This document shows, piece by piece, positions 2,952-64,000 of a DNA stretch of 64,000 nucleotides. This stretch comes from a virus. Its lineage: Duplodnaviria; Heunggongvirae; Uroviricota; Caudoviricetes. A program made the position numbers and the translations under genes. Location of the stretch: positions 131,284 to 195,283 of IMG/VR virus record IMGVR_UViG_3300042484_003148. One strand, 5' to 3'. Within the stretch, counting starts at the first letter, position 1. Every line of letters starts with the position of its first letter. The notes under the pieces are model-generated. The model was given only the letters and a program-made list of their open reading frames with translations. It did not search any database and was not told where the DNA came from.

Positions 2952-3365
2952 ATGGAAATAAAACCAGGACTATCTTTAGTTTCAACTAAAGAATATTTTG
3001 AATTACTTAAATTCAAAGAAACTATCGAAAACAAAGGTACTGTTATTGTAAGTGAAGGTAATCGTTTTAACGGTTATCTTGATACTAAATTCAGCTTCTT
3101 AACTGAAAATGAAACTCTTGATAATTTATCTAAAAAGATAGAAACTTTAACAAAAGAAAATGTTTTATTAAAGGATGAAAACAATGTATTAAAAACTGAA
3201 AATAAAATTTTGAAATCTGATATTTTGTCTTTAAAATCGGTTAATTCTACATTAGAAAAAGGTAATGAATTATTATCTAATCAAATTCTAGAATTGACAC
3301 CTAAAGTATTAATACACGAACCTAATTGGTTTCAAAAACTATTTAAAATAAATATTTTTAGATGA
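2952..3365 (+). CDS. coiled-coil protein
   Basis: 137 aa with leucine/lysine heptad-like repeats (LTKENVLLKDENNVLKTENKILKSDILSLKS). Confidence 0.5.
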   Translation: MEIKPGLSLVSTKEYFELLKFKETIENKGTVIVSEGNRFNGYLDTKFSFLTENETLDNLSKKIETLTKENVLLKDENNVLKTENKILKSDILSLKSVNSTLEKGNELLSNQILELTPKVLIHEPNWFQKLFKINIFR

Positions 3366-3571
3366 CACAACAACAGTTAGAAATCATTGATAGATTATAT
3401 TCGTTTTACGCTATCAACAAGGAAGAATATAACATTTTAGTAGGAAATACTAACCAAGATACTTGCGTTAAATGTAGATGCTCAAAATGCACCAAAAACG
3501 AAAGATATGAAATACCGTATTCTCTTTATTCCAAAGATGGTACTATCAACTATAGTAAACATGGTTGTTAA
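3362..3571 (+). CDS. small Cys-rich protein
   Basis: 69 aa; ATGA overlap with the upstream gene; contains CVKCRCSKC...HGC. Confidence 0.45.
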   Translation: MTQQQLEIIDRLYSFYAINKEEYNILVGNTNQDTCVKCRCSKCTKNERYEIPYSLYSKDGTINYSKHGC

Positions 3572-3583
3572 ACATTATATTAT

Positions 3584-3835
3584 TTATTTTAAATAAAAAA
3601 CTCTTCTTAAATTAATAGGAAGAGTTTTTTGTTTTAATGAGGTTATAAATTGCTCAAGTAAAATCTCAATATTAGTTTCATATTTATCACTAATCTTACC
3701 ACATGTATTACATTTTATTTTAACTAAACTTTGACTATTTTTATAATTTTCATGTACTAACGAATAATCAAACTTACCGATACCATGTATATATTCAGAT
3801 TCTTCAATAAATTGTTCAACAGGTATTGGTTTCAA
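3584..3835 (-). CDS. zinc-ribbon protein (HG-x-GK-x-DYS ... C-x2-CG motif), paralog of 5365..5550
   Basis: 83 aa with IHGIGKFDYSLVHENYKNSQSLVKIKCNTCG. The same motif occurs in the 5365..5550 ORF. The module resembles zinc ribbons seen in phage homing-endonuclease-like proteins, but that family assignment is uncertain. Confidence 0.45.
   Translation of the reverse strand: MKPIPVEQFIEESEYIHGIGKFDYSLVHENYKNSQSLVKIKCNTCGKISDKYETNIEILLEQFITSLKQKTLPINLRRVFYLK
3594..3632. terminator. bidirectional rho-independent terminator hairpin
   Basis: Stem AAAAAACTCTTC...GAAGAGTTTTTT between convergent genes. Confidence 0.6.
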
Positions 3836-3966
3836 AACATTACAGTTTAAAATTTCATAGTATTTTATACTATTACTCTTCTTTTGTGGACTTTGACCTC
3901 ACACTGGGTTAACTGCCAACCCTCTATCGGTTTCATGTTCCGTTTGGAACAATCCGCCCTTGCGTT
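3836..3966 (-). ncRNA. candidate omega/right-end guide RNA scaffold of the TnpB element
   Basis: A GC-rich, hairpin-rich stretch (GUUCCAAACGGAAC, GGGUUGGCAGUUAACCC on the minus strand) lies immediately 3' of the tnpB stop. This is where TnpB reRNAs are encoded. Its composition is sharply different from the flanking AT-rich DNA. Confidence 0.45.
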
Positions 3967-5268
3967 TTATATTATTATCGGTACTAATTTACAGCGACTG
4001 CTGTCTAAGAACCTACCGATACTTAACATATACTTTCTTAGTATATTATAACTACCATTCACATCTGAGTTAACTTTGATGTTGTTTTTACTAACGTACA
4101 AACCTCTTAGCTTACGACTTCCACTGAAACTGTAATTCTTAGCTTGGTTTTTATTATAAGTTGGTATCAAGTCATCATCAACAAAGCTCGCTTGTGATGT
4201 GTAACTTTCCTCTTGTTCCACAACAACGTTACCTATCAACTCACTTTTGTACTTTAACTGTTGAGTTAATTTAGTATAAGGTATCGAAACGAAGTTTTGG
4301 TTAACTTTCTTTGACATATTTACTTCGTCTTTCCAACCTTTGTTACAACCTACAACTATTGTACCAATATTATACTGTAAACATAGTTGCAATATTTTGT
4401 TTGTGTACTCATGAAACTCATGTTCAATTTTACAGTTACGTTTGTGAGTTAAAGTGTTAATCTTATTTGAGTTCTGTAAGATTTGAGGGTTTCCTTCTTT
4501 GTCTTTCAAACTAGAATGATTTGGTAGTTGCGACTGCAACTCTGCTCTGACTTTATTATAAAACTGATTTATTGATTTAACATGACCACCTTTAATTATA
4601 CGAGGCTGAAAGCCTTCTACATTTGATGTTATGGTCATTAAATTGTTAACTCCGTAATCAATACTTATAATATTATCTTTATTTAAGTTCATGTTCTTTT
4701 CTTCTACATCATAAACAACTTCAATTTTATATTTTTTATTTGACATTGGTACTAATCGTACCATTTTCAAAACACCGTTGTGTTTGTTAATGACAGGTAC
4801 TTCAATGTTAGTTCCACTAAGTTTAATAAAACCTTGTTTTAATTTAGTTTTAGATATTGCACCAAGTTCATACGTTACTACGTAACGACCTTTGGTTTTG
4901 TGCAAGTAGTTAGGTAACTTTGGTCTGCCTGTTAAACAGTCTTTATTACTTTTGTACTTTTTACAAAGAGCAAAGAAAGATTTAAAGTTTTTATCAACCA
5001 ACATAAGAGTTTGATTACTAACTTTACGTGGTAATTCACAATAATCAACATCTTTACTGTCAACAAATTGTCTATTAATAGTATTATAATTAAAATAATT
5101 TGCATGGTCAACCATGCCTTGTTCTTTTAATTTGGAAGTATTAATAAATTCTTGTCTTACAGTATAGAGAGCTTTATTATACAGATTTTTACTTTTAAAA
5201 CACAGAGAATCAATCTCTTCATAGAAGCGATGTGATTTATTAATTATGTGTTTTTCGGTATTGTACAT
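3967..5268 (-). CDS. tnpB: TnpB-like RNA-guided nuclease (IS605/IS607 OrfB family), zinc-finger-less variant
   Basis: 433 aa. RuvC-I ISIDYGVNN, TSQ motif, and RuvC-III NSDVNGSYNILRKY (equivalent to D-x-NAA-x-NI). All four zinc-finger cysteines after TSQ are replaced (SQASFVDDD...FSGSRKLRG). The canonical IxxEDL reads IVVGCNKGWKDE. About 90% identical to the partial ORF at 63102..64000. Confidence 0.8.
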   Translation of the reverse strand: MYNTEKHIINKSHRFYEEIDSLCFKSKNLYNKALYTVRQEFINTSKLKEQGMVDHANYFNYNTINRQFVDSKDVDYCELPRKVSNQTLMLVDKNFKSFFALCKKYKSNKDCLTGRPKLPNYLHKTKGRYVVTYELGAISKTKLKQGFIKLSGTNIEVPVINKHNGVLKMVRLVPMSNKKYKIEVVYDVEEKNMNLNKDNIISIDYGVNNLMTITSNVEGFQPRIIKGGHVKSINQFYNKVRAELQSQLPNHSSLKDKEGNPQILQNSNKINTLTHKRNCKIEHEFHEYTNKILQLCLQYNIGTIVVGCNKGWKDEVNMSKKVNQNFVSIPYTKLTQQLKYKSELIGNVVVEQEESYTSQASFVDDDLIPTYNKNQAKNYSFSGSRKLRGLYVSKNNIKVNSDVNGSYNILRKYMLSIGRFLDSSRCKLVPIII

Positions 5269-5364
5269 TAACAGTTATTATTTATTATAAATAGTTTGTT
5301 TTATAAAATAAATATGTTAAATTTACATAAAACTAACATAAAGTTCTATGTTAGATGGTTGCTT

Positions 5365-5550
5365 TTAAACACAACCTCTTCTTTCATTTAGATGTCTATA
5401 CGGCGTATTAAAAAATGTGGTTCCGCATTTATTACATTTAATTTCCACTTTTGTATCCACATTTTTGTAAACTACGTTACTATAATCATAACGTCCATCT
5501 CCATGTATACTCTTACCTTTTTCTATAAAATTTTTTAATTTGTCTTCCAT
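5365..5550 (-). CDS. zinc-ribbon protein paralog (HG-x-G-x-YDYS ... CNKCG)
   Basis: 61 aa with IHGDGRYDYSNVVYKNVDTKVEIKCNKCG; paralog of 3584..3835 on the other side of tnpB. Confidence 0.45.
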   Translation of the reverse strand: MEDKLKNFIEKGKSIHGDGRYDYSNVVYKNVDTKVEIKCNKCGTTFFNTPYRHLNERRGCV

Positions 5551-5611
5551 TTTATTTTAAATTAAAAAACCTGATATTAACTAAAATACCAGGTCACACT
5601 TGTTTAATGTT

Positions 5612-5758
5612 TTATTTTACTGAATCTTTAGCTAAAGAATCCACTTTAACTACTACCGAGTCAACCTTAGTTGAATCTACTGAATCAGTTTTTTTAGTTT
5701 CACCACAAGATAATAAAGCGAAACTTACACAGATAATTGGAACTAATAATTTTTTCAT
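5612..5758 (-). CDS. small putative lipoprotein (48 aa)
   Basis: MKKLLVPIICVSFALLSCGE: signal peptide plus lipobox, followed by Ser/Asp/Val repeats. Under 60 aa, so absent from the ORF track. Confidence 0.3.
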   Translation of the reverse strand: MKKLLVPIICVSFALLSCGETKKTDSVDSTKVDSVVVKVDSLAKDSVK

Positions 5759-5856
5759 TTAATGAAATTTTTGGTTTAAAATTAAAGATTAGACAAAAAT
5801 ACAAAAAGCTTGGAATAAATCCAAGCTTTTCATACAATTTATTTTCAACTTATTGA

Positions 5857-10784: not shown

Positions 10785-10820
10785 AAAAACCTCTCTTATT
10801 AATTTAAGGAGGTTTTTTAT
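10785..10820 (+). terminator. rho-independent terminator (AAACCTCTC family)
   Basis: AAAACCTCTCTTATTAATTTAAGGAGGTTTTTTATTTT. Confidence 0.55.
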
Positions 10821-10908
10821 TTTATAACCTCTTTGTAATCTTTACTGAAACGTAATAAATAATACCTGAAACGTAAAATATTTTCTATTTAAAATAAAAT
10901 AGGGAGAG

Positions 10909-11495: not shown

Positions 11496-11915
11496 ATGTA
11501 TACTATATATCATTCAAAGAAACTAACTAATTTATCACCTGTTAAATATAAACTTTTCAACTTAGGTGTTGCATTTGCGGTTAATTATTTAAAAATAGAT
11601 AAAAATATTAAATTCAATATTTACTTATTTCATAAAGATGATAAAAGTAAACCACAAAATATTACCCTTGCTGCTTATGACCCACAAACCCACGATATTC
11701 ATGTAAGAGCTGATAATAGAATATTAATGGATATATTAAGAAGTTTCTTTCACGAAATGGAACACTTCAGGGAGCAAACTCAAGGTGGAATAGATTTTTC
11801 AAAGTATGATGATATCCACTGTGATACAGAATATAATGCAAATAAACAAGCAGGTATAATGTGTAAAGTATTTGCAAAAGAAAATAATGCTAAGTGGATT
11901 AATAGTATTGATTAA
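11496..11915 (+). CDS. small HExxH-motif protein (possible metallopeptidase-like)
   Basis: 139 aa containing FFHEMEHF. Confidence 0.4.
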   Translation: MYTIYHSKKLTNLSPVKYKLFNLGVAFAVNYLKIDKNIKFNIYLFHKDDKSKPQNITLAAYDPQTHDIHVRADNRILMDILRSFFHEMEHFREQTQGGIDFSKYDDIHCDTEYNANKQAGIMCKVFAKENNAKWINSID

Positions 11916-11969
11916 TTCATTTAATTAAAGAAACGGCTTAGGACCGATTTGCTGTTACGGCAAAATTTG

Positions 11970-12037: not shown

Positions 12038-12904
12038 ATGTTTAAAACCAACTCTATGAAAAAATGTGCTAAATGTAAAATAGAAAAACCTGAAACTGAA
12101 TTCGGTAATAATAAATCTTCAAAAGATGGATTACATTCTTATTGTAAAGAATGTGAAAATAAATGTTCTCGTGATAAATATTATAATAATCGTGAAAAAA
12201 AACTTAAACAACTAAAAGATAAATATCAAAATGACATTGAATTTAAAAATAAAAGAAATTCAATAATAAACACAGATGAATTTAAAAATAAAAGAAATGA
12301 AAATGCTAGAAATAAACGTAAAAATAATGAAGAATATCGCGAAAAAATAAATAAACAAGAACGTGATAAATACAATAATAAAACTGAATTACGTGAAAAA
12401 AAACTAAAGAAAATAAGAGACAAAACTGCTAATGATAGTGAATTTCGTGAAAAAGAAAGCAAGCGAAAAAAAGAATACCACGCAACACCCAAAGGTAAAA
12501 AGGTATTAAAACGTGCATATTCAAAATACATAAATAAACCTGAAAATAAAATGATTCGTACTATTCGTGATTTTATCCATAGAACATTAAAATATAAAAA
12601 TGAAACATATACTAACAAAGATTTAGGTTATACTAAACATGAGCTAAAAGAACACCTAGAAAAACAATTTGATGAAAATATGTCATGGGACAATTATGGT
12701 ATTTGGCATGTTGACCATATTATACCTATTACAAAGTTTGATAAAACAACACCGATATATGTTATTAATCACCTAGAAAATTTACAACCTTTAGATGGTA
12801 CTGAAAATATGAGTAAGAATAACCGCATCGAATTACTACCTGAACGAACAATCGGTGAATATGTTTTATTTTTAAATGAAAATAATAAGTATCAATTAAA
12901 ATAA
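12038..12904 (+). CDS. HNH homing-like endonuclease with N-terminal zinc ribbon and basic EYR repeats
   Basis: 288 aa. N-terminal C-x2-C...C-x2-C (CAKCKIEKPETEFGNNKSSKDGLHSYCKECENK). K/R-rich repeats (EYREKINKQERDKYN...). C-terminal HNH (WHVDHIIPITKF...NLQPLDGTENMSKNN). Paralog of 14141..15574. Confidence 0.75.
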   Translation: MFKTNSMKKCAKCKIEKPETEFGNNKSSKDGLHSYCKECENKCSRDKYYNNREKKLKQLKDKYQNDIEFKNKRNSIINTDEFKNKRNENARNKRKNNEEYREKINKQERDKYNNKTELREKKLKKIRDKTANDSEFREKESKRKKEYHATPKGKKVLKRAYSKYINKPENKMIRTIRDFIHRTLKYKNETYTNKDLGYTKHELKEHLEKQFDENMSWDNYGIWHVDHIIPITKFDKTTPIYVINHLENLQPLDGTENMSKNNRIELLPERTIGEYVLFLNENNKYQLK

Positions 12905-14140: not shown

Positions 14141-15574
14141 ATGGAAATAAACAATACTAAAAAATGTACCAAGTGTGGTGTTGAAAAAGAGTTGAGCGAG
14201 TTTGCTAAAAATAAAAATACAAAAGATGGTGTAAAACCTGCTTGTAAAACTTGTGTAAATAAACAAACATCTGAAAAATATTTTAATGATTCAATTTTAC
14301 GTGAAAAACGAAGTCAAGAAGCTAAAGAACGTTATAAAGAAAAACTTAAGGTTGAGAAAATAACTATTGATTTTTCAGCTTCAAAACCTTGTATTAAATG
14401 TGGTGTTGAAAAAACATTAGATAAATACACCAAAAATATATCTTCTATAGATGGTGTTGAAAATGTTTGTAAAGATTGTAAAAATGAACATAAAAGAAAC
14501 AAGGTTAAAAATGATTCAGAATATCGTGAAAAATTAAATAAACGAGGTAGAGATAGATATTTACAAAAAGCAAATGAAAACAAACAACAAGACCTTAATT
14601 TAATATTAAAGGTTTGTAGTAAATGTGGTATTGAAAAAGATGGTACCTGTTTTAATAAACACAAAAGTAGACAAGACGGATTAACAGGTGTTTGTAAAGA
14701 ATGTAGAAATAAATATTTACGTGATAAAGGTAAAGAAAACCCTGAATATCGTTATATGATAAATCAAAAAAGACAGGATAAAATTATTTTTAAAAAATAT
14801 ACATTTAAAGGTGTTGATAATACAATATTGAAACCTTGTAGTAAATGTGGTATTGAAAAAACTTTAGATAAATTTTCCAAAGAAATATTATGTACTGATG
14901 GTACTAAAAATATTTGTAATGAATGTAAAAATGAACGAAACAAGGGAATACTAAATAATAATCCTGAACGTAGAATTAAATACAATACACAAAGACGTAA
15001 TAAAATTAACAACAATATTGAATATCGTAACAAAATCCGTCAAAAACAAAGGGAATTTTTAAAAAATAACCCAGAAATTAAAGAAAGGTATAAACAAACC
15101 CAAAAAGAAAAGTTTAACGACCCTGAGTATCGTGTTATCTATAATAATAGACAACGTAAATATCACTCATCACCTAGTAGTAAAAAAGCTAGAAAAATAA
15201 GAGAATCTAGACCCGAATACAAAATAGCCAAAGCTATGAGACATTCAGTTAAAAGAGTGTTAAATTATAGTGATGGTAATTTTATAAATGAAAAATTAGG
15301 TTATACCAAACATGAATTAATGGAACATTTAGAAAAACAGTTTGATGAAAATATGTCATGGAACAATTACGGTACTTGGCATATTGACCATATCATACCT
15401 ATAACTAAGTTTGACAAAACAACACCTTCTTACATAATCAATCATCTTGAAAATTTACAACCTTTAGATGGTACAGAAAATAAAAGTAAAAATAATCGTA
15501 TTGAATTAATTCCTGAAATTTCAATTGGTGAATATGTATTATTTTTAAATGAATCAGGTAAATATCAACTATAA
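14141..15574 (+). CDS. HNH endonuclease with four zinc-ribbon/basic modules
   Basis: 477 aa. Four repeats of C-x2-CG-x-EK-x-L-x-F...DG....C-K-x-C, each followed by a basic EYR-type segment. C-terminal HNH domain about 80% identical to 12038..12904 (WHIDHIIPITKFDKTTP...NLQPLDGTENKSKNN). Confidence 0.75.
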   Translation: MEINNTKKCTKCGVEKELSEFAKNKNTKDGVKPACKTCVNKQTSEKYFNDSILREKRSQEAKERYKEKLKVEKITIDFSASKPCIKCGVEKTLDKYTKNISSIDGVENVCKDCKNEHKRNKVKNDSEYREKLNKRGRDRYLQKANENKQQDLNLILKVCSKCGIEKDGTCFNKHKSRQDGLTGVCKECRNKYLRDKGKENPEYRYMINQKRQDKIIFKKYTFKGVDNTILKPCSKCGIEKTLDKFSKEILCTDGTKNICNECKNERNKGILNNNPERRIKYNTQRRNKINNNIEYRNKIRQKQREFLKNNPEIKERYKQTQKEKFNDPEYRVIYNNRQRKYHSSPSSKKARKIRESRPEYKIAKAMRHSVKRVLNYSDGNFINEKLGYTKHELMEHLEKQFDENMSWNNYGTWHIDHIIPITKFDKTTPSYIINHLENLQPLDGTENKSKNNRIELIPEISIGEYVLFLNESGKYQL

Positions 15575-15579
15575 AACAG

Positions 15580-15618
15580 AAAAACCTCTCCTAATTTCTT
15601 AAGAGAGGTTTTCTTTTT
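15580..15618. terminator. bidirectional terminator (AAACCTCTC family)
   Basis: AAAACCTCTCCTAATTTCTTAAGAGAGGTTTTC between convergent genes. Confidence 0.65.
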
Positions 15619-15632
15619 ACATTTTAAGTTAA

Positions 15633-18308
15633 TTAAACATTAGCAAAACTTGCACCTTGGTTTGAAATTATCATACTAACCCCGATATATTCCAAACTCT
15701 TTACAGGTTTAACATAAATATTAAAATACAACTCATTACGTTCTCTAGTTGAACTATCATTAATATCAGCAAATGTAATTTTAGCATCCAATAACCCTCT
15801 TTCTGACCTAACAGCATTAAGTATTGGATTAGCCTGGTCCAAGAACTGATTAATTACTGTATCATCATTAGGTTCAAACAACAAACCTCTTGCAATATTT
15901 GAGAATTGTCTACCTAAATACAAGAACAAACGTCTAACATTAATTCTATCTAAAGCAGATGGTTTAGTTGGTGATTTAAGAGTTTTATTACCAAACACAT
16001 CAATTACACCACCAAAATTAGCCACTGGGTTAATTGCTTGAGCGTATAAAACATCTCTTGCAGATTCTTTCAATTTAAATCTAACTTTATTAGCGTTCAA
16101 CAAACCTCTAGTTGTACCAGCAGTTGCAAACCAACTATAGAATTTATTATCAGTGAATGCGAATGCTCTAGCCATCTCTCCGGTTGGTGGAATGTAAACG
16201 TTAACATTATTATCTGTATCTAAAATCTGAATATGTGGTCCATAAGTACAAGCATAAGTGGTATCTAAATCAGCCGCTTCAATTAAACTAGCAATAGAAC
16301 TAGCATAAGTTTCAGAAGTTTCATTAGGTAAATCTGGTGAGTCCATAATATACAAGAAATCACCTCTTTCATTTTCAATTAAGTCAACAACTTCATTTAC
16401 TAATGTAAGGTTATCTGACCAGTTAAGTCCAGGTGTTGCAAACAAGTTAATAGGTGTTTCCTCAGCATTACTGAATGTTGCAATACCTTGTTCCCATGCT
16501 TGATAATCTGCACCTAAGAAATAACCACTACCACCTTTAGCATATCTAGGTGTAATAGTTCTTTGGTCTCTATATTCATCCCAACCATCAAAACCACCAT
16601 AAGCAGTTACAGTGAATTTTCTAGTGTTTTTATCGAAATATTTATTGTTAACATTTCTAACATCTGTAATAGTTTGTAATGTATCAGCACCTGTAACAAA
16701 TTGACCAATTGAATAAGTACCATCAGTATAAGTACCTGTTGCACCTGAATCAAAGTGGAAACCTTTTGTTTTATTTACACTAGCTGAAGCTAAATTACCA
16801 GAGAATTGGAAGAAATCAGAATTAAGACCAGAACCAACAGTAGTTGTACTATCATAAGCTCTTTCTGAAATACCCAAGAAAACACGTTTAACTTTATCAG
16901 AATCAGCGTAAGATGATTTATATAATAATGTTGGTGTTTGTCCTGTATTAGTTACACCATTTACATAACCTCTTAAATTATAACCTTCAAAACCGCCAGG
17001 TAAAGTTGTTTCATCAATATTATCATAATCAGCGAATTCTAAATAAACATAAGAAGATTGATTATCGTAATTTTCACCACCATCACCAATTCTTTTACCT
17101 ATAAAGTTAGTACTAGATTTTGATAAAGAACATCTAGTATATGATTCCAATACAGACATACTATCATCAGTATCATTAAAATCTCTAATAATTACATCAA
17201 ACTCACCTGTTTCTGGTGAAACATTAGCAATAGAAACTTTAACAAATGTATTAGCTGCATTACCATCTGAGAATAAAACAAACCTAAACAATCTATCAAC
17301 TTTATTTCCTTTTAGTAAAGAAACAATCCAAGGTGTCTCAGGTGTTTTGTAACCTGTATTAAATTCAGTTGTTTCAGTAAATAATGATAATGTAGGTGAA
17401 ACACCATACAATGCACCGTCATTATACAATTTTGAAATTAAAGCATCGTAAGATTTTTCAACAAAAATATCTGCTGTTTTATCTTTATGTTTAGTACCTA
17501 AAACTTTAGTAATATAAGATGAAGATTTTGGGTCAATAGATACTGTATAAGTATTAGTTGATGTACCTGATAATGTAAAGTTACTGTAAGGTGAACTATT
17601 TGCTACAGTTGAATCGCTAATAGTTAATCCTGAAATATTATAAATTAGTGTATCATTACTATAATAACCTCTACTTCTTAACAAACCAACAACCATACCT
17701 TCATAAGCAGCATAAGGTGTAGCTGTTTGAGTAGTTGCTGTATACGATACTGTACCTGTCAAACCATTAATTGTAGAAACAGCAGTTTGAGGGATAATAG
17801 TTACATAATTTCTGTTAAATGTAGCACCAGGTGTTGTAGCTCTAGTAAACGAAGTATAACCTGTTTGAGTAACACCTGTAGTTGTAATAGTTATACCACT
17901 AAACACACCACCTGTATAAGTAGTTGACCCGGTTGTAGTACTACCATTAGCGATAGTTGCAGGGTCATAGTTAGCTAAAACTTTAATAGCGTAACCATTT
18001 CCAGAAGCGTAACCGCTTTTACCCAAAATTCTAGTAACAAATAAATTATTACCTTCACTTAAAAAAGAATCTGCATAGTAAGGTAATGTATATTTAAGGT
18101 TTCCACCTATTTTTTCAATACTTTTACCACCAAAAACTTTTTTAAACTGGGTTTTATTTGTTATTTGCTGAGGTTCAAAAGCTGGACCTTGCGTTGTTTC
18201 ACCCAATAAACCTAATGCAGTAACACCCAAAGCAACACCACCATTATATTGGCTGTTATCAATCTCCCTTACTTTAACGGTTGGTGATACGAAAATAAAA
18301 TCACTCAT
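15633..18308 (-). CDS. tail sheath protein (contractile tail)
   Basis: 891 aa. The N-terminus (FIFVSPTVKVREIDNSQYNGGVALGVTALGLLGETTQGPAFEPQQITNKTQFKKVFGG) follows the conserved sheath signature (SPG.ELKE...GTAAL.GKF.WGPAF....T....F...FG, as in T4 gp18). Confidence 0.7.
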   Translation of the reverse strand: MSDFIFVSPTVKVREIDNSQYNGGVALGVTALGLLGETTQGPAFEPQQITNKTQFKKVFGGKSIEKIGGNLKYTLPYYADSFLSEGNNLFVTRILGKSGYASGNGYAIKVLANYDPATIANGSTTTGSTTYTGGVFSGITITTTGVTQTGYTSFTRATTPGATFNRNYVTIIPQTAVSTINGLTGTVSYTATTQTATPYAAYEGMVVGLLRSRGYYSNDTLIYNISGLTISDSTVANSSPYSNFTLSGTSTNTYTVSIDPKSSSYITKVLGTKHKDKTADIFVEKSYDALISKLYNDGALYGVSPTLSLFTETTEFNTGYKTPETPWIVSLLKGNKVDRLFRFVLFSDGNAANTFVKVSIANVSPETGEFDVIIRDFNDTDDSMSVLESYTRCSLSKSSTNFIGKRIGDGGENYDNQSSYVYLEFADYDNIDETTLPGGFEGYNLRGYVNGVTNTGQTPTLLYKSSYADSDKVKRVFLGISERAYDSTTTVGSGLNSDFFQFSGNLASASVNKTKGFHFDSGATGTYTDGTYSIGQFVTGADTLQTITDVRNVNNKYFDKNTRKFTVTAYGGFDGWDEYRDQRTITPRYAKGGSGYFLGADYQAWEQGIATFSNAEETPINLFATPGLNWSDNLTLVNEVVDLIENERGDFLYIMDSPDLPNETSETYASSIASLIEAADLDTTYACTYGPHIQILDTDNNVNVYIPPTGEMARAFAFTDNKFYSWFATAGTTRGLLNANKVRFKLKESARDVLYAQAINPVANFGGVIDVFGNKTLKSPTKPSALDRINVRRLFLYLGRQFSNIARGLLFEPNDDTVINQFLDQANPILNAVRSERGLLDAKITFADINDSSTRERNELYFNIYVKPVKSLEYIGVSMIISNQGASFANV

Positions 18309-25982: not shown

Positions 25983-26020
25983 AAAAAACCTCACCTAATT
26001 TCTTAAGAGAGGTTTTTCTT
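25983..26020. terminator. bidirectional terminator (AAACCTC family)
   Basis: AAAAAACCTCACCTAATTTCTTAAGAGAGGTTTTTC between convergent genes. Confidence 0.6.
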
Positions 26021-26021
26021 T

Positions 26022-27116
26022 TTATATTTTAAGGTTAACTGTAAATTGAACCGAGTTAAACCTATTCTTTGGTACCGGTTCAGATAATTTAGCAATAGCT
26101 ATTAATTCTTTATTTGCGTTATACAAACCTATTTCTGTTATATAAACAGGGTCATCATTTTCATTACCTGTTGGGTATACATCTAAGAAAGTTGGATTTG
26201 TACTTTCGTAAAATTCACCTGGTCCACCAATACAACTAATACTTTGAACAAACTCTGTTGAGTAACTTGTAAATGCAGCTGAACTAAAAGTTGTACCAGT
26301 AAAATAAATTTGTGTAAAATTAGTACCACCCGTATAAGTAGAACCACTAGTTATACCATCAAAACCAGATGAGAAACCTGCTTCATAATCAAAATTATTA
26401 ACCAAAGTTTGATTAGTAATAACAAAGAAACCTTTATCTAAATAAGCAACTCCAACAACTTCATCTTTAGAAGAACCATCATACTGAGCAAATTGTTTTG
26501 CTGTTGTTGATGTGATAGGATTTTTCACGTCATATTTATTTGCAGAAGACCATGCTGACCAAGTTGTTCCGGTATTCACTTTTGGTGTACTAATGCTATT
26601 ACTAAACAAGAACGCAATATTTGATTGATAATTATTATCACTATTTGCAGGTACACCAAAATATTCAGCTTGAGGAGTTGAATCTGAATATTGTTTATTC
26701 ATATTTCCTTGTGTTGTATTTTGTGAACTATCATTAAAATACGTACCATAACAAGTAACCTGATATTGAGTTGAACCAGTCTTTTGTGGTATGTTAAAAG
26801 TTATAGTTTTACCATCAATAACTTCACCATAAGTATTTTTAGGTATCTCTACAACAATAACATTATCCTGATTAATATTTTGTAAAGCTGTGTTATAAAA
26901 AGTACCACCACTTAAAAATTCATTTTTTTGTTCTTGTGTTACAGGTAAGTTAAATGAAGTAAATAAATTACCATAAGGTCTAACAGTTAAATCAGTTCTA
27001 CTAGCTTTAGTAAAAAACAAATTTGGTCCAGATAAACTTGTAGTAGTTTTAACTAATTGTGTCTGAAAAGCATTAGGGTTTGCCTCAACAGATTTTAATT
27101 TATCATCTATGAACAT
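26022..27116 (-). CDS. putative tail structural protein
   Basis: 364-aa ORF in a minus-strand structural operon. Confidence 0.4.
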   Translation of the reverse strand: MFIDDKLKSVEANPNAFQTQLVKTTTSLSGPNLFFTKASRTDLTVRPYGNLFTSFNLPVTQEQKNEFLSGGTFYNTALQNINQDNVIVVEIPKNTYGEVIDGKTITFNIPQKTGSTQYQVTCYGTYFNDSSQNTTQGNMNKQYSDSTPQAEYFGVPANSDNNYQSNIAFLFSNSISTPKVNTGTTWSAWSSANKYDVKNPITSTTAKQFAQYDGSSKDEVVGVAYLDKGFFVITNQTLVNNFDYEAGFSSGFDGITSGSTYTGGTNFTQIYFTGTTFSSAAFTSYSTEFVQSISCIGGPGEFYESTNPTFLDVYPTGNENDDPVYITEIGLYNANKELIAIAKLSEPVPKNRFNSVQFTVNLKI

Positions 27117-35833: not shown

Positions 35834-35868
35834 AAAACCTCTCCTAAAATTAATTAAGAGAGGTTTTC
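35834..35868. terminator. bidirectional terminator (AAACCTCTC family)
   Basis: AAAAAACCTCTCCTAAAATTAATTAAGAGAGGTTTTC. Confidence 0.6.
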
Positions 35869-36831
35869 TATTTTCTGGATTCAGACATCTTTTTTTGTTG
35901 TTCAAATTCTTTAACTAATCTATCGAAATGTTTTTTTCTTTCATAAACAGTCATTATGTTTTTAACATCACTAAAAGAATAACCACCATGTTTAACTAAT
36001 ATACCTATTTCATCATTTATGTAGTTCTCATAATCAACCCATAATTTTAATGATTCTTCTGAACTATCGTTAAACTGGATAAAAAAAGTCTGGACCGATT
36101 GAAACCCTAGCTTGAAATGTTTGTCCTGTATCTGGACACGTAAATTCATACGTTAAATCCAAACCAGCTTCTACCTCATTAATTTTATTTCTTAGTTCTT
36201 TAGCTTCTCTAATTTGCATCCTATCCAAGAATAAATCATTCTTAGCTTTATTATCATTACCATTAATTGAAACAATTTGTGTTTTTAATTTATTCATAAT
36301 TAGATTATTTGCACCACCTAACATCTTAACTTCACTCTCAGATGTAGATTGCAATCTTCTCATTTCACCCATTGTCAGATATCTAAAAATAAATGTGTTA
36401 CCGTTTTTAGATACATATCTAAAATAACCGTCTTTATCATGAACATCACCAAATGGTCTAGTTTCAAATTTACCCAAATCAACAACTTCTTTAAATTCTA
36501 CACCTGTATATGGTGAAGTAACTATTGTTTCATACTCAGCACCATAAGCTGTAATCCTTAAGTTAAATAAAATTGCATCATAATCACCAGGTAATAACTG
36601 GTCTGGTTGCATACCTAAATCTTTAGCTTTCAATGAAATTAAAGTATCAAAAGCCTTGTTTGATTTAATTAAGTTAGGTGATAATAATATTGCTTCATCC
36701 TTCGCACACATACCTTCAACAGTTACCTGTGTCTTGCCATTAGGGTACAACACACCACCACTAGGTAAATCTACAACGTCAAACATTATATTACCAAACT
36801 CTGGTTTTTCGTTTAAATTATTTTGTTCCAT
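35868..36831 (-). CDS. hypothetical protein split by a +1 frameshift at a T7 tract (ORFs 36070..36831 and 35868..36149)
   Basis: The 253-aa and 93-aa ORFs overlap in different frames at the homopolymer 36081..36087 (A7 on plus, T7 on minus). Removing one base gives a continuous reading ...SIGPDFFIQFNDSSEE.... Confidence 0.4.
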
Positions 36832-61930: not shown

Positions 61931-62461
61931 ATGGAATTAAAAATCAACAACAAATATATTTTGCTTGAAAAGAATAATGATTATGTTTTCAAAGCATTAA
62001 TTAATGATGTTACTAAAACATCTATTCAAATTACTAACTTAGATAACGGAAGTGGTCCTGTTAGAACATTATTAACAGCGTTTCATGAACAACTTGATGT
62101 TATTGAGTTTATTGATGATAAACAAATAGAATCTCAAATAACAAATTCTATAAATAAATTAAATAAACTAGATAACATAGTAACTAAAGAACTTGTCTCT
62201 TTACCGACTAAGGTAATAAAAGATAATTTAGAAATAGAATCAGCAATGATGAATGTTTTTCTAGAAAATCAAAAACCTTTAGAACCGGATTTTCAAGATG
62301 CACTTAATGAGTTAACTAAAGAATCCGGAAAGGAAATACCAATTCGTTTTATTTCACCTCAAATTAATGTTCGTGAAATTGATAATATTATTTCTGATGA
62401 ACCAGATTACATTCAACCAACCAAACCTTTAACAAACAATTGGTGTTTTAAAAGCAAGTAA
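61931..62461 (+). CDS. hypothetical protein
   Basis: 176-aa ORF. Confidence 0.45.
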   Translation: MELKINNKYILLEKNNDYVFKALINDVTKTSIQITNLDNGSGPVRTLLTAFHEQLDVIEFIDDKQIESQITNSINKLNKLDNIVTKELVSLPTKVIKDNLEIESAMMNVFLENQKPLEPDFQDALNELTKESGKEIPIRFISPQINVREIDNIISDEPDYIQPTKPLTNNWCFKSK

Positions 62462-62521
62462 ATAATCTTTAATTTTATGGAAGTTTTATTTAATTTCTAC
62501 TATTTAAAATAAATAACTACA

Positions 62522-63094
62522 ATGTACTACAAACTATCTGATTACGCAAAAAAATTTAACATTACCTACCGTGCAGCGTGGAATCGCTTCAAAGCTGGTA
62601 AAATTAAAGATGCTTTTGTTGATGATACAAACCATGTTTGTATCCCTGTTCATAAAATGGACTCAATGTCTAAAAACATGGTAATTTATTCCAGAGTTTC
62701 TTCTAATGAAATGAAAGAAAACTTAGAACGTCAATCTGAAAGATTGACCAACTACGCTATCTCTAACGGTTATACTATCATTAAAGTTGTTAAAGAAGTA
62801 GGCTCTGGTCTGAACGACCACAGACCTAAACTTATGAAAGTTTTAACAGACAACAACTTTGATTTTATTTTAGTTGAAAATAAAGATAGATTAACCCGTT
62901 TCGGGTTTAATTATCTTGAAACTCTTTTAAAAACTCAAAACAAACAAATTATCGTTGTTAACAATACAAATGATGATAAAACAGATATCATTAATGATTT
63001 AGTTTCTATTATCTACTCATTCTCTGCCCGTATCTACGGGTTAAGAAGAGCTAAAAACAAACAAAAAGAAATACTTAATATTATAAATAATTAA
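62522..63094 (+). CDS. tnpA: IS607-family serine recombinase transposase TnpA
   Basis: 190 aa. N-terminal MerR-like HTH (MYYKLSDYAKKFNITYRAAWNRFKAGKI), then the serine-recombinase catalytic region VIYSRVSS...KVVKEVGSGLNDHRPKL...FDFILVENKDRLTRFGF. Confidence 0.75.
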   Translation: MYYKLSDYAKKFNITYRAAWNRFKAGKIKDAFVDDTNHVCIPVHKMDSMSKNMVIYSRVSSNEMKENLERQSERLTNYAISNGYTIIKVVKEVGSGLNDHRPKLMKVLTDNNFDFILVENKDRLTRFGFNYLETLLKTQNKQIIVVNNTNDDKTDIINDLVSIIYSFSARIYGLRRAKNKQKEILNIINN

Positions 63095-63101
63095 TTCTTT
63101 A

Positions 63102-64000
63102 ATGTACGTTACTGAAAAACATATAATCAACAAATTACATCGCTTCTACGAAGAGATTGATTCTCTGTGTTTTAAAAGTAAAAACTTGTATAATAAAGCT
63201 CTTTATACTGTAAGACAAGAATTTATTAATACTTCTAAATTAAAAGAACAAGGCATGGTTGACCATGCTAATTATTTTAATTATTATGATATTAATAGAC
63301 AATTCATTGACAGTAAAGATGTTGATTATTATAATTTACCTGTTAAAATTAGTAATCAAACCCTTATGTTGGTTGATAAGAACTTTAAATCTTTCTTTGC
63401 TTTATGTAAAAAGTACAAAAGCAACAAAAATAATTTAACAGGTAGACCAAAGTTACCTAACTACTTGCACAAAACCAAGGGTCGTTACGTAGTAACGTAT
63501 GAACTTGGTGCAATATCTAGCAAGTTTTTAAAACAAAATGTAATTAAACTAAGTGGGACTAACATTGAAGTACCCGTCATTAACAAACACAACGGTGTTT
63601 TAAAAATGGTACGATTAGTACCCATGTCAAATAAAAAATATAAAATTGAAGTTGTTTATGATGTAGAAGAAAAGAACATGAATTTAAATAAAGACAATAT
63701 AATAAGTATTGATTACGGAGTTAATAATTTAATGACTATAACATCAAATGTAGAAGGCTTTCAGCCTCGTATAATTAAAGGTGGTCATGTTAAATCAATA
63801 AATCAGTTTTATAATAAAGTCAAAAGTGAGTTGCAGTCGCAACTACCAAACCATTCTAGTTTGAAAGACAAAGAAGGTAAACCTCAAATCTTACAGAACT
63901 CTAATAAGATTAACACTTTAACACATAAGCGTAACTGTAAGATTGAACATGAGTTTCATGAGTACACAAACAAAATATTGCAACTGTGTTTACAGTATAA
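63102..64000 (+). CDS. tnpB: TnpB-like RNA-guided nuclease, second copy (partial; runs off window end)
   Basis: ATG at 63102, open to the end of the window. About 90% amino-acid identity to the 3967..5268 protein, including ISIDYGVNN (RuvC-I). Absent from the ORF track because no stop lies in the window. Confidence 0.8.
   Translation, partial: MYVTEKHIINKLHRFYEEIDSLCFKSKNLYNKALYTVRQEFINTSKLKEQGMVDHANYFNYYDINRQFIDSKDVDYYNLPVKISNQTLMLVDKNFKSFFALCKKYKSNKNNLTGRPKLPNYLHKTKGRYVVTYELGAISSKFLKQNVIKLSGTNIEVPVINKHNGVLKMVRLVPMSNKKYKIEVVYDVEEKNMNLNKDNIISIDYGVNNLMTITSNVEGFQPRIIKGGHVKSINQFYNKVKSELQSQLPNHSSLKDKEGKPQILQNSNKINTLTHKRNCKIEHEFHEYTNKILQLCLQY

What the first reader, a model, noticed from the sequence alone, without database searches (positions are those of the whole stretch)
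3836..3966. GC-rich structured segment 3' of tnpB: candidate omega/reRNA scaffold and transposon right end
An approximately 130-nt block immediately past the tnpB stop on the minus strand is far more GC-rich than its surroundings. It contains hairpins (GUUCCAAACGGAAC, GGGUUGGCAGUUAACCC). TnpB guide RNAs derive from exactly this location, overlapping the 3' end of tnpB and the right end. The guide would be the phage sequence just beyond about 3880.
Basis: inference. Interest (0 to 1): 0.6.

Follow-up and report, generated by a model that had tools for sequence, protein, structure and literature searches.

The report
Guide-RNA scaffold at transposon right end
The GC-rich block is the right end of an IS607-type insertion sequence in a large phage genome and almost certainly encodes the scaffold of the guide RNA used by the neighbouring TnpB nuclease, which is an ordinary though well-preserved example of a known system.

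Summary
Window 3836-3966 is 38% G+C against 27% for the window, and its core, 3886-3966, is the most G+C-rich 81-nt stretch in all 64 kb. Both hairpins exist.

1. The element is IS607-type, with a serine-recombinase TnpA in copy 2. It is not IS200/IS605.
2. The right end is at 3842 (…AAACUGU), not about 3880. The guide would therefore start at 3841 (AAUGUUUUGAAACCAAUACC).
3. The RNA does not reach Rfam's threshold for any family. The closest is IS605-orfB-II, at 13.9 bits against the 88 needed.

A covariance model built only from the tnpB 3' regions of 35 distant relatives finds 3842-3939(-) as the sole significant hit in the window (47 bits, E about 8e-5).

The block folds as a 5' hairpin, a nexus hairpin, SL2 and SL3. 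A pseudoknot joins the nexus loop GCAGUU to the terminal AACUGU. Across 54 distinct relatives that pseudoknot covaries (C-G 30, U-A 22, G-C 1, unpaired 1).

The second copy's 3' flank, recovered from the same genome, keeps the block at about 90% identity with a compensatory A-U to G-C change. So does a roughly 410-nt derivative without tnpB.

No RNA data exist. This is a new member of a known kind, of modest interest.

The parts
3842..3966 (-). Non-coding right end (RE) of IS607-type element copy 1; predicted omegaRNA scaffold.
   Evidence: Conserved in five independent variants at 96% mean column identity (A7). The model R1, built without this subfamily, matches 3939-3842 at 47.1 bits, E = 7.6e-5, full length. 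The tnpB-less mini element keeps exactly this block.
3937..3950 (-). 5' hairpin GUUCC-AAAC-GGAAC.
   Evidence: Present in the folds. It pairs in 5 of 5 variants. Its only stem change is U-A to U-G, and its other change is in the loop.
3906..3922 (-). Nexus hairpin GGGUU-GGCAGUU-AACCC. Loop bases 3916-3911 (GCAGUU) form the 5' strand of the pseudoknot.
   Evidence: The stem covaries across relatives: 3 of 5 pairs change on both sides, and 91% of cells are paired. In most relatives the homologous sequence lies inside the ORF and codes GIEGxxVxP.
3886..3902 (-). SL2: GUG(A)GG-UCAAAG-UCCAC, following the conserved AGU spacer (3905-3903).
   Evidence: A hairpin sits at the same position after CCC-AGU in relatives. 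On A4, 69% of cells are paired and 3 of 4 pairs change on both sides. Within the subfamily 92% of cells are paired.
3858..3872 (-). SL3: UAGUAU-AAA-AUACUA.
   Evidence: Pair 3871/3859 is A-U in copy 1 and L156, G-C in copy 2, and G-U in L044 and the mini element.
3842..3847 (-). Terminal AACUGU: the 3' strand of the pseudoknot and the last bases of the element.
   Evidence: Four different flanks diverge immediately after this hexamer: AATG, AGTA, TATA and TCTC. Pseudoknot covariation is C-G 30, U-A 22, G-C 1, other 1, with 0 of 500 shuffles reaching the observed score.
3822..3841 (-). Predicted guide, AAUGUUUUGAAACCAAUACC. The 20-nt length is assumed by analogy, not measured.
   Evidence: This is the first sequence past the RE and is unique in the window at up to 3 mismatches. 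That the guide follows the last scaffold base is taken from published TnpB work (10.1101/2023.11.20.567912; PMC11061315).
3967..5268 (-). tnpB copy 1 (433 aa), with the RuvC residues D204, E354 and D402 present.
5269..5368 (-). Left end (LE) of copy 1. There is no tnpA.
   Evidence: Shared with L156 and, in part, with the LE of copy 2.
5369..5372 (-). GTGT flanking the LE: the candidate TAM and TnpA target core.
   Evidence: GTGT precedes the LE at 4 of 4 junctions. The uninterrupted orthologous gene reads through GGTTGTGT.
62443..64000 (+). Copy 2: GTGT (62443-62446), LE (62447-62521), tnpA (62522-63094) and tnpB from 63102, cut off by the window end.
   Evidence: The remainder, including its omegaRNA block, is at L001 7885-8009.
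3584..3835 (-). Downstream half of the interrupted DUF723 (Hef-like) gene. The upstream half is 5365..5550 (-).
   Evidence: Pfam DUF723 is recorded on both halves. The two halves align colinearly to Hef-like homing endonucleases and to an uninterrupted syntenic 206-aa orthologue.

Best explanation
Window 3842-3966 (minus strand) is the right end of a tnpA-less IS607-family element (5368 to 3842). It most likely encodes the scaffold of the omegaRNA (reRNA) used by the TnpB encoded just upstream.

Anatomy, 5' to 3':
- a 5' hairpin (3950-3937);
- a nexus hairpin (3922-3906);
- an AGU spacer;
- SL2 (3902-3886);
- an A-rich linker;
- SL3 (3872-3858);
- a U-rich tail ending in AACUGU (3847-3842), which pairs with the nexus loop GCAGUU (3916-3911) as a pseudoknot.

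Inferred mechanism, by analogy with characterised TnpB systems:
1. Transcription runs through tnpB and past the right end.
2. TnpB binds the scaffold.
3. The next 16-20 nt of phage sequence (from 3841, AAUGUUUUGAAACCAAUACC) serve as the guide.
4. The complex cuts DNA that carries that sequence directly after the motif found on the left flank (GTGT). Such a site would be either the joint left by TnpA-mediated excision or an uninterrupted allele in a co-infecting phage.
5. Recombinational repair from an element-bearing copy restores or spreads the element.
6. The right end itself reads CTGT rather than GTGT, which would spare the element from self-cleavage.

The same DNA must also hold whatever the serine recombinase TnpA of copy 2 recognises at the right end.

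What is shown: the location, the boundaries, conservation among copies, family-wide structural covariation, and different flanks after AACUGU. What is inferred: expression, TnpB binding, guide length, TAM identity and cleavage.
For: - TnpB and TnpA identities.
- Independent model test: R1 was made from 35 relatives at 37-53% TnpB identity, with this subfamily left out. It gives one significant hit in 64 kb, 3939-3842(-), at 47.1 bits and E = 7.6e-5, full length and ending at 3842.
- Pseudoknot: on the model-made alignment A6 (54 distinct sequences) the helix is 94.8% paired. The key pair is C-G 30, U-A 22, G-C 1, other 1, and a second pair has one A-U to U-A flip. None of 500 shuffles reaches the score, and slid controls give 31-50% pairing. 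The hand-trimmed A4 gives the same result.
- Published work describes this architecture for IS605 and IS607 omegaRNAs: consecutive stem-loops, with the nexus pairing to the scaffold's 3' end (10.1101/2023.11.20.567912, read).
- Copy 2's flank from the same genome keeps the block with a compensatory change in SL3. L001 overlaps the window over 7479 nt with 0 mismatches.
- A mini element without tnpB keeps LE plus this block only.
- Flanks differ after AACTGT at four insertion sites.
- GTGT lies at all four LE junctions. The uninterrupted orthologue reads GGTTGTGT. The joint GTGT+TATACC restores 69 codons of an HNH ORF for L156/L044.
- IS607 TnpBs are experimentally RNA-guided nucleases that use 3'-flank RNAs (PMC11061315).
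- IS607 transposes as double-stranded DNA by a serine recombinase, so conserved base-pairing points to an RNA role rather than to DNA hairpins for the transposase.
Against: - There is no transcript, 3'-end or binding data.
- No Rfam family is reached. The best, RF02998, scores 13.9 bits (E = 6.6) and is mis-registered at its 3' end.
- Within the subfamily only five variants exist, so covariation there is not significant (300 of 500 shuffles reach the observed values).
- E-values from R1 are rough because calibration was shortened.
- The seed ends for A4 and A5 were trimmed by eye at the ACNNT motif, though A6's ends were set by the model.
- For copy 1, the GTGT joint does not put the two DUF723 halves in frame. 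The right flank is also not colinear with the orthologue, so the original target of this guide cannot be confirmed.
- This TnpB clade lacks the usual CxxC...CxxC zinc finger. Its activity is untested.
Confidence: 0.85

Rival explanations
1. The block is only the DNA right end, a recognition site for the IS607 serine recombinase, and makes no functional RNA. Its conservation would reflect transposase binding and recent common descent of the copies.
For: The RE is needed in cis for transposition, and the mini element keeps LE plus RE. The five subfamily copies are 96% alike, too close for independent proof of RNA structure.
Against: The long-range complementarity between the nexus loop and the last six bases covaries across 54 distant relatives, and hairpin stems covary too. 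A recombinase acting on double-stranded DNA does not require that. The same motif is an Rfam structured-RNA family in relatives: RF02998 scores 148 and 114 bits in L009 and L011.
Confidence: 0.07
2. The block is a decaying remnant of the TnpB C-terminal coding region, with no role of its own. In relatives, AUAGAGGGU..GCAGU..CCC codes for GIEGxxVxP.
For: In most relatives the motif lies inside the ORF. Here it lies after the stop codon.
Against: It is as conserved as the coding sequence between copies: about 90% against 92% (hand count). It keeps all helices. The tnpB-less mini element retains it. It scores with a structure-aware model. A relic would not keep complementarity to the element's last six bases.
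Confidence: 0.04
3. The block is the 3' part of a group I intron (an IStron), which lets the element splice out of the interrupted DUF723 mRNA.
For: Some IS607-family elements are IStrons (10.1101/2023.11.20.567912). Copy 1 sits inside a gene.
Against: No Intron_gpI or other intron hit appears at gathering threshold in the window, nor at E <= 10 in 3400-5700 or 3790-4120. The LE is only about 100 nt in copy 1 and about 75 nt before tnpA in copy 2, too short for the 5' ribozyme core. The two exon halves are not in frame across the GTGT joint.
Confidence: 0.01
4. The block is an intrinsic transcription terminator or mRNA-stabilising structure for tnpB.
For: It contains G+C-rich hairpins right after a stop codon.
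Against: No terminator-like site was called in 3836-3966. Neither hairpin is followed by a U-run. The only U-run (3852-3849) follows the weak A/U-rich SL3. This reading explains neither the pseudoknot nor the exact coincidence with the element boundary.
Confidence: 0.02

Closest known systems
omegaRNA of IS607-family TnpB (Clostridium botulinum IStron CboTnpB; Zedaveinyte et al., bioRxiv 10.1101/2023.11.20.567912)
   Same: Both have a serine-recombinase TnpA plus TnpB. The guide RNA is encoded at the right end. Consecutive stem-loops are present, with a nexus loop that pairs to the scaffold's 3' end. The guide starts right after the last element base. The RE terminus resembles the TAM but differs from it at one position: TCGG against TGGG there, CTGT against GTGT here.
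   Different: There is no group I intron here. The scaffold sequence is different. The candidate TAM is GTGT, with a GT rather than GG core. The host is a lytic-type T4-like jumbo phage rather than a bacterial chromosome. Nothing has been tested experimentally here.
Rfam RF02998 IS605-orfB-II RNA
   Same: It lies directly 3' of tnpB in relatives whose TnpB is 37-38% identical: L009 at 148 bits and L011 at 114 bits. It shares CAUGA, GAUAGAGGGU..GCAGU..CCC and the terminal AACUGU.
   Different: The window scores only 13.9 bits against a gathering score of 88. The block is about 50 nt shorter. It lacks the long G+C-rich central helix, and the order of the 5' elements differs. Model R1 in turn gave no match at E <= 0.01 in the RF02998-type loci L009, L011, L041 and L045.
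RAGATH-18-derived reRNAs of IS607 TnpB (ISFba1; Ren et al. 2024, PMC11061315)
   Same: An IS607 TnpB uses an RNA from its 3' flank. The scaffold has stem-loops and pseudoknots. The TAM lies 5' of the target.
   Different: There is no RAGATH-18 match in the window. The TAMs there are AGGAG and GAGGG, and the scaffold is 187 nt.
ISDra2 (IS200/IS605) TnpB reRNA
   Same: The RNA derives from the 3' end of tnpB and the RE, has a pseudoknotted scaffold, and is thought to serve transposon maintenance by homing.
   Different: ISDra2 uses a Y1 (HUH) transposase with single-stranded DNA hairpin ends and the TAM TTGAT. Here the transposase is a serine recombinase. The TnpB has no detectable sequence match to solved TnpB structures; only weak Cas12f hits appear (E about 2e-3).

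Membership tests
TnpB omegaRNA / reRNA (OMEGA guide RNA) | Encoded at the 3' end of, or just downstream of, a tnpB gene and running to the transposon right-end boundary. | tested here: met
   The stop codon is at 3969-3967 and the block is 3966-3842. The boundary at 3842 is fixed by four different flanks.
TnpB omegaRNA / reRNA (OMEGA guide RNA) | Adjacent TnpB with an intact RuvC catalytic triad. | tested here: met
   NCBIfam guided_TnpB scores 140.8 bits against a cut-off of 100. D204, E354 and D402 are invariant in A2.
TnpB omegaRNA / reRNA (OMEGA guide RNA) | Conserved scaffold of stem-loops in which the nexus loop pairs with the scaffold's 3' end (pseudoknot). | tested here: met
   The pseudoknot is 94.8% paired across 54 sequences (C-G 30, U-A 22, G-C 1), with 0 of 500 shuffles as good. 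The nexus and SL2 stems covary.
TnpB omegaRNA / reRNA (OMEGA guide RNA) | The sequence after the scaffold (the guide) is insertion-site specific. | tested here: met
   After AACTGT the flanks read AATGTTTT (copy 1), AGTAATAA (copy 2), TATACCAA (L044 and L156) and TCTCTATC (mini element).
TnpB omegaRNA / reRNA (OMEGA guide RNA) | A TAM on the left flank that matches the transposase target and differs from the RE terminus. | tested here: inconclusive
   GTGT lies at 4 of 4 LE junctions, against CTGT at the RE. The orthologous uninterrupted gene contains GGTTGTGT, and the L156 joint restores an ORF. No cleavage or TAM assay was possible.
TnpB omegaRNA / reRNA (OMEGA guide RNA) | The RNA is expressed, bound by TnpB and guides DNA cleavage. 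| not testable with these tools
   No transcriptome or biochemical data are available.
Rfam RF02998 (IS605-orfB-II RNA) | Covariance-model score at or above the gathering threshold of 88 bits. | tested here: not met
   13.9 bits, E = 6.6, at 3823-3937(-). There are no hits at gathering threshold in the window.
IS607 family insertion sequence | Serine-recombinase TnpA (MerR-like N-terminus plus resolvase domain) upstream of tnpB. | tested here: met
   In copy 2, window 62522-63094 matches NCBIfam transpos_IS607 (equivalog) at 169.1 bits against a cut-off of 110, and Pfam Resolvase. Copy 1 lacks tnpA and is a non-autonomous derivative.
IS607 family insertion sequence | No terminal inverted repeats and no target-site duplication, with a shared core dinucleotide at both junctions. 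| tested here: met
   The junctions read ..GT|LE and RE..GT|flank, with no duplication of flanking sequence. No inverted repeat pairing the two ends was reported.
   The only transposase linked to this tnpB is a serine recombinase.
IStron (IS plus group I intron) | A group I ribozyme core in the element ends. | tested here: not met
   No Intron_gpI match appears at E <= 10 in 3400-5700 or 3790-4120. The LE is only about 100 nt.
RAGATH-18-derived reRNA | A match to the RAGATH-18 motif downstream of an IS607 tnpB. | tested here: not met
   No such Rfam match appears.

The most novel reading that the evidence does not exclude
In this T4-like jumbo phage, the IS607 TnpB and its omegaRNA may work as a reprogrammable homing endonuclease in phage-against-phage competition. 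Each insertion carries a guide for its own empty site, so the element could convert naive alleles in co-infecting phages. A tnpB-less mini element that keeps only LE plus the omegaRNA block could borrow TnpB and TnpA in trans. Both mapped tnpB-only insertions lie inside genes of classical homing-endonuclease types: a Hef-like DUF723 gene and an HNH gene.
Probability: 0.35. Interest if true: 0.55.

Novelty: new member of a known kind. Interest (0 to 1): 0.3.

Why it matters
The result gives a precise, testable annotation of a TnpB guide-RNA locus in a phage genome. It defines the scaffold boundaries, the pseudoknot, the first guide base (3841) and a candidate TAM (GTGT).

It also shows that this scaffold type is missed by current Rfam models at threshold, whereas a simple custom model recovers it.

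If the system is active, it would be a compact nuclease (433 aa plus a scaffold of about 100-125 nt) with a short TAM. It would also be a natural case of RNA-guided homing in lytic phages.

None of this changes what is understood about TnpB systems.

Tried and rejected
- Rfam at gathering threshold on the whole window: nothing. Permissive scans of 3400-5700 and 3790-4120 gave only a sub-threshold, mis-registered RF02998 match.
- Megablast of 3300-5800 against GenBank phages: no match.
- Exact-pattern search for an empty site in IMG/VR (left flank, 0-10 nt, right flank): none. A search for the L044/L156 right flank in the window, as a possible empty site, also found none.
- Group I intron (IStron) reading: rejected. 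There are no ribozyme hits and the LE is too short.
- Terminator reading: rejected.
- First attempts to score the pseudoknot with loose regular expressions were too noisy or used the wrong loop register. They were replaced by alignments A4 and A6.
- Alternative boundary with the LE starting at GT, which would fuse the two DUF723 halves in frame: rejected. The uninterrupted orthologue contains GGTTGTGT, and the L156/L044 joint needs both GTs to restore the HNH ORF.
- PDB sequence search gave only weak Cas12f hits and was not informative.
- Guide search in the window at up to 3 mismatches found only the site itself.
- Sigma-70-like promoter hits inside the tnpB 3' end (4181-4153 and 4073-4045, minus strand) are not above the shuffle expectation.

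Full report
**What is at the site**

ORF 3967..5268 (-) encodes a 433-aa TnpB. It matches Pfam OrfB_IS605 and the Cas12f1-like TNB domain and NCBIfam guided_TnpB at 140.8 bits against a cut-off of 100. The RuvC residues D204, E354 and D402 are invariant in an alignment with relatives.

The block 3836-3966 lies directly 3' of the stop codon (3969-3967). It is 38.2% G+C in a 26.8% window. Its core, 3886-3966, is 50.6% G+C, the richest 81-nt stretch of the 64 kb.

**Which transposon**

A 902-nt inverted repeat (92%) links 4370-5271 to 63099-64000. That second copy has a 190-aa serine recombinase directly upstream (62522-63094), which matches NCBIfam transpos_IS607 at 169 bits.

The element is therefore IS607-type, not IS200/IS605. 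Copy 1 is a tnpA-less derivative.

The exact TnpA protein led to a 308,574-bp metagenomic contig (L001). L001 overlaps the window over 7479 nt without a mismatch, so it is the same genome and supplies the rest of copy 2.

**Boundaries**

Copy 1 and copy 2 stay homologous past the stop codon and through the whole G+C-rich block. They diverge right after ...AAACTGT / ...GAACTGT.

Three further close variants were found:
- L044, in an IMG/VR contig;
- L156, with a TnpB 95% identical to copy 1, also tnpA-less;
- a roughly 410-nt derivative without tnpA or tnpB, 3.5 kb beyond the window end in the same genome (L001 about 11930-11522, minus strand).

After AACTGT the flanks read AATG, AGTA, TATA (L044 and L156) and TCTC. 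The right end is therefore window 3842, not about 3880.

On the left, all four junctions read GTGT followed by TT(T)AAAAGC or AGTCAAAGC. A syntenic, uninterrupted orthologue of the interrupted gene sits next to gp23 in a related phage contig (L236). It reads ...CGTGGTTGTGT|TGCTTG..., so GTGT is host sequence. For L156/L044, the joint GTGT+TATACC... restores 69 further codons of an HNH-type ORF, whereas dropping one GT ends the ORF after 7 codons.

Copy 1 thus spans 5368-3842, with GTGT at 5372-5369.

**Is the block an RNA of the TnpB-associated kind?**

Rfam finds nothing at gathering threshold. A permissive scan gives only RF02998 (IS605-orfB-II) at 13.9 bits, E = 6.6, with the 3' end mis-registered. 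The same family is hit strongly directly 3' of tnpB in two phage relatives: L009 at 148 bits and L011 at 114 bits. The window shares its CAUGA, GAUAGAGGGU..GCAGU..CCC and terminal AACUGU.

I collected TnpB relatives at 37-53% identity from viral, genomic and metagenomic contigs. I aligned 35 of their 3' regions, leaving out this subfamily (A5), and built a covariance model, R1.

In the whole window, on both strands, R1's only significant match is 3939-3842(-). It scores 47.1 bits with E = 7.6e-5, covers the full model length and ends exactly at 3842. The next hit, 17605-17686, is noise at E = 4.5. R1 also finds copy 2, L044, L156 and the mini element.

**Structure**

The relatives share four features:
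- a nexus hairpin;
- a conserved AGU spacer followed by a second hairpin;
- a variable terminal hairpin;
- a U-rich tail ending in ACNNU.

The nexus loop, G-N1-N2-G-U, is complementary to the terminal A-C-N2'-N1'-U.

On the model-made alignment A6 (54 distinct sequences), the six-pair pseudoknot is 94.8% paired. The N1/N1' pair is C-G 30, U-A 22, G-C 1 and unpaired 1. The N2/N2' pair shows one A-U to U-A flip. None of 500 shuffles reaches the observed covariation score, and sliding the partner by 1-3 columns drops pairing to 31-50%. The hand-trimmed A4 gives the same picture and adds partial support for SL2.

This is the architecture published for IS605 and IS607 omegaRNAs: consecutive stem-loops, with the nexus pairing to the scaffold's 3' end (10.1101/2023.11.20.567912).

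In the window the elements are:

| Element | Coordinates (minus strand) |
|---|---|
| 5' hairpin | 3950-3937 |
| Nexus hairpin | 3922-3906 |
| Pseudoknot, 5' strand | 3916-3911 |
| SL2 | 3902-3886 |
| SL3 | 3872-3858 |
| Pseudoknot, 3' strand | 3847-3842 |

Among the five subfamily variants, 98.5% of cells pair. SL3 pair 3871/3859 is A-U, G-U or G-C. With only five sequences this is not significant by itself.

**A point about origin**

In most relatives the nexus sequence lies inside the ORF and codes the C-terminal GIEGxxVxP. Here, and in RF02998-type elements, it lies after the stop codon yet is kept.

The mini element retains homology exactly from the stop-codon region to the right end.

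**Mechanism**

This section is inferred. By analogy with tested IS607 and IS605 TnpB systems (PMC11061315; 10.1101/2023.11.20.567912; PMC10278001 for processing of tnpB mRNA, abstract seen), the transcript through tnpB and the right end would be bound by TnpB. The 16-20 nt after 3842 (AAUGUUUUGAAACCAAUACC) would act as the guide; they are unique in the window.

The complex would cut DNA carrying GTGT followed by that sequence. Such a site would be the post-excision joint or a naive allele in a co-infecting phage. Repair from an element-bearing copy would then restore or spread the element.

The right end reads CTGT where the left flank reads GTGT. This mirrors TCGG against TGGG in the C. botulinum element and would prevent self-targeting.

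Because IS607 moves as double-stranded DNA via a serine recombinase, conserved base-pairing argues for an RNA role rather than for DNA hairpins.

**Caveats**

- No expression or biochemical data exist.
- R1's E-values are rough.
- Seed ends were trimmed by eye.
- For copy 1, the two DUF723 halves (5365..5550 and 3584..3835) align colinearly to Hef-like homing endonucleases but are not in frame across the GTGT joint. The right flank is also about 4-5 codons shorter than the orthologue, so the original target of this guide cannot be verified.
- The TnpB clade lacks the usual zinc-finger cysteines, and solved structures give only weak Cas12f matches.

**Verdict**

It is a new member of a known kind, of modest interest. 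The phage setting, the omegaRNA-only mini element and the insertions into homing-endonuclease-type genes are the more interesting side observations.

Noticed in passing
L001 about 11522-11930 (minus strand); same genome, about 3.5 kb past the window end: A roughly 410-nt derivative without tnpA or tnpB. It consists of GTGT, an LE like that of copy 2, about 250 nt of unknown sequence containing three small hairpins, and then the complete 125-nt RE/omegaRNA block (R1: 46.8 bits). It looks like a non-autonomous element that could use TnpA and TnpB in trans.
   Followed up: partly
window 5365-5550 (-) and 3584-3835 (-); L236 1501-2121: Copy 1 interrupts a tandem-DUF723 (Hef-like homing-endonuclease-type) gene next to the gp23 capsid gene. 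A related phage has the uninterrupted 206-aa gene at the same position. The close copy L156/L044 interrupts an HNH-type ORF.
   Followed up: partly
window 3967-5268 (-) and relatives in alignment A2: This TnpB clade, comprising phage, cyanobacterial and other relatives, has no CxxC...CxxC zinc-finger motif in the TNB region, although the RuvC D-E-D triad is intact.
   Followed up: no
L016, L022, L024, L028, L034, L042, L049, L067 and many of L076-L235: In most relatives the nexus hairpin of the 3' RNA lies inside the tnpB ORF and codes the C-terminal GIEGxxVxP motif. In the window and in RF02998-type elements the same sequence lies after the stop codon.
   Followed up: partly
window 12905, 36885, 51819, 52340, 54721, 61587: A repeated 37-52-nt intergenic motif, TTTATTGAAACCTTTT..TA..TTTGCGTTA, occurs in 5-6 copies. 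It may be a phage promoter or regulatory box.
   Followed up: no
window 10785-10823, 15580-15618, 25984-26022, 35835-35873: A repeated palindrome, AAAAACCTCTC...GAGAGGTTTTT, looks like a family of shared intrinsic terminators.
   Followed up: no
window 12587-12886 / 15260-15559 and 14142-14936: A 300-nt direct repeat (80%) and tandem 123-nt units contain C..KCG zinc-ribbon-like codons. They suggest paralogous modular genes, possibly further homing-endonuclease-like ORFs.
   Followed up: no
window 4153-4181 and 4045-4073 (minus strand): Two sigma-70-like promoter matches (10 of 12) lie inside the 3' part of tnpB, upstream of the RNA block. Their count is not above the shuffle expectation.
   Followed up: no
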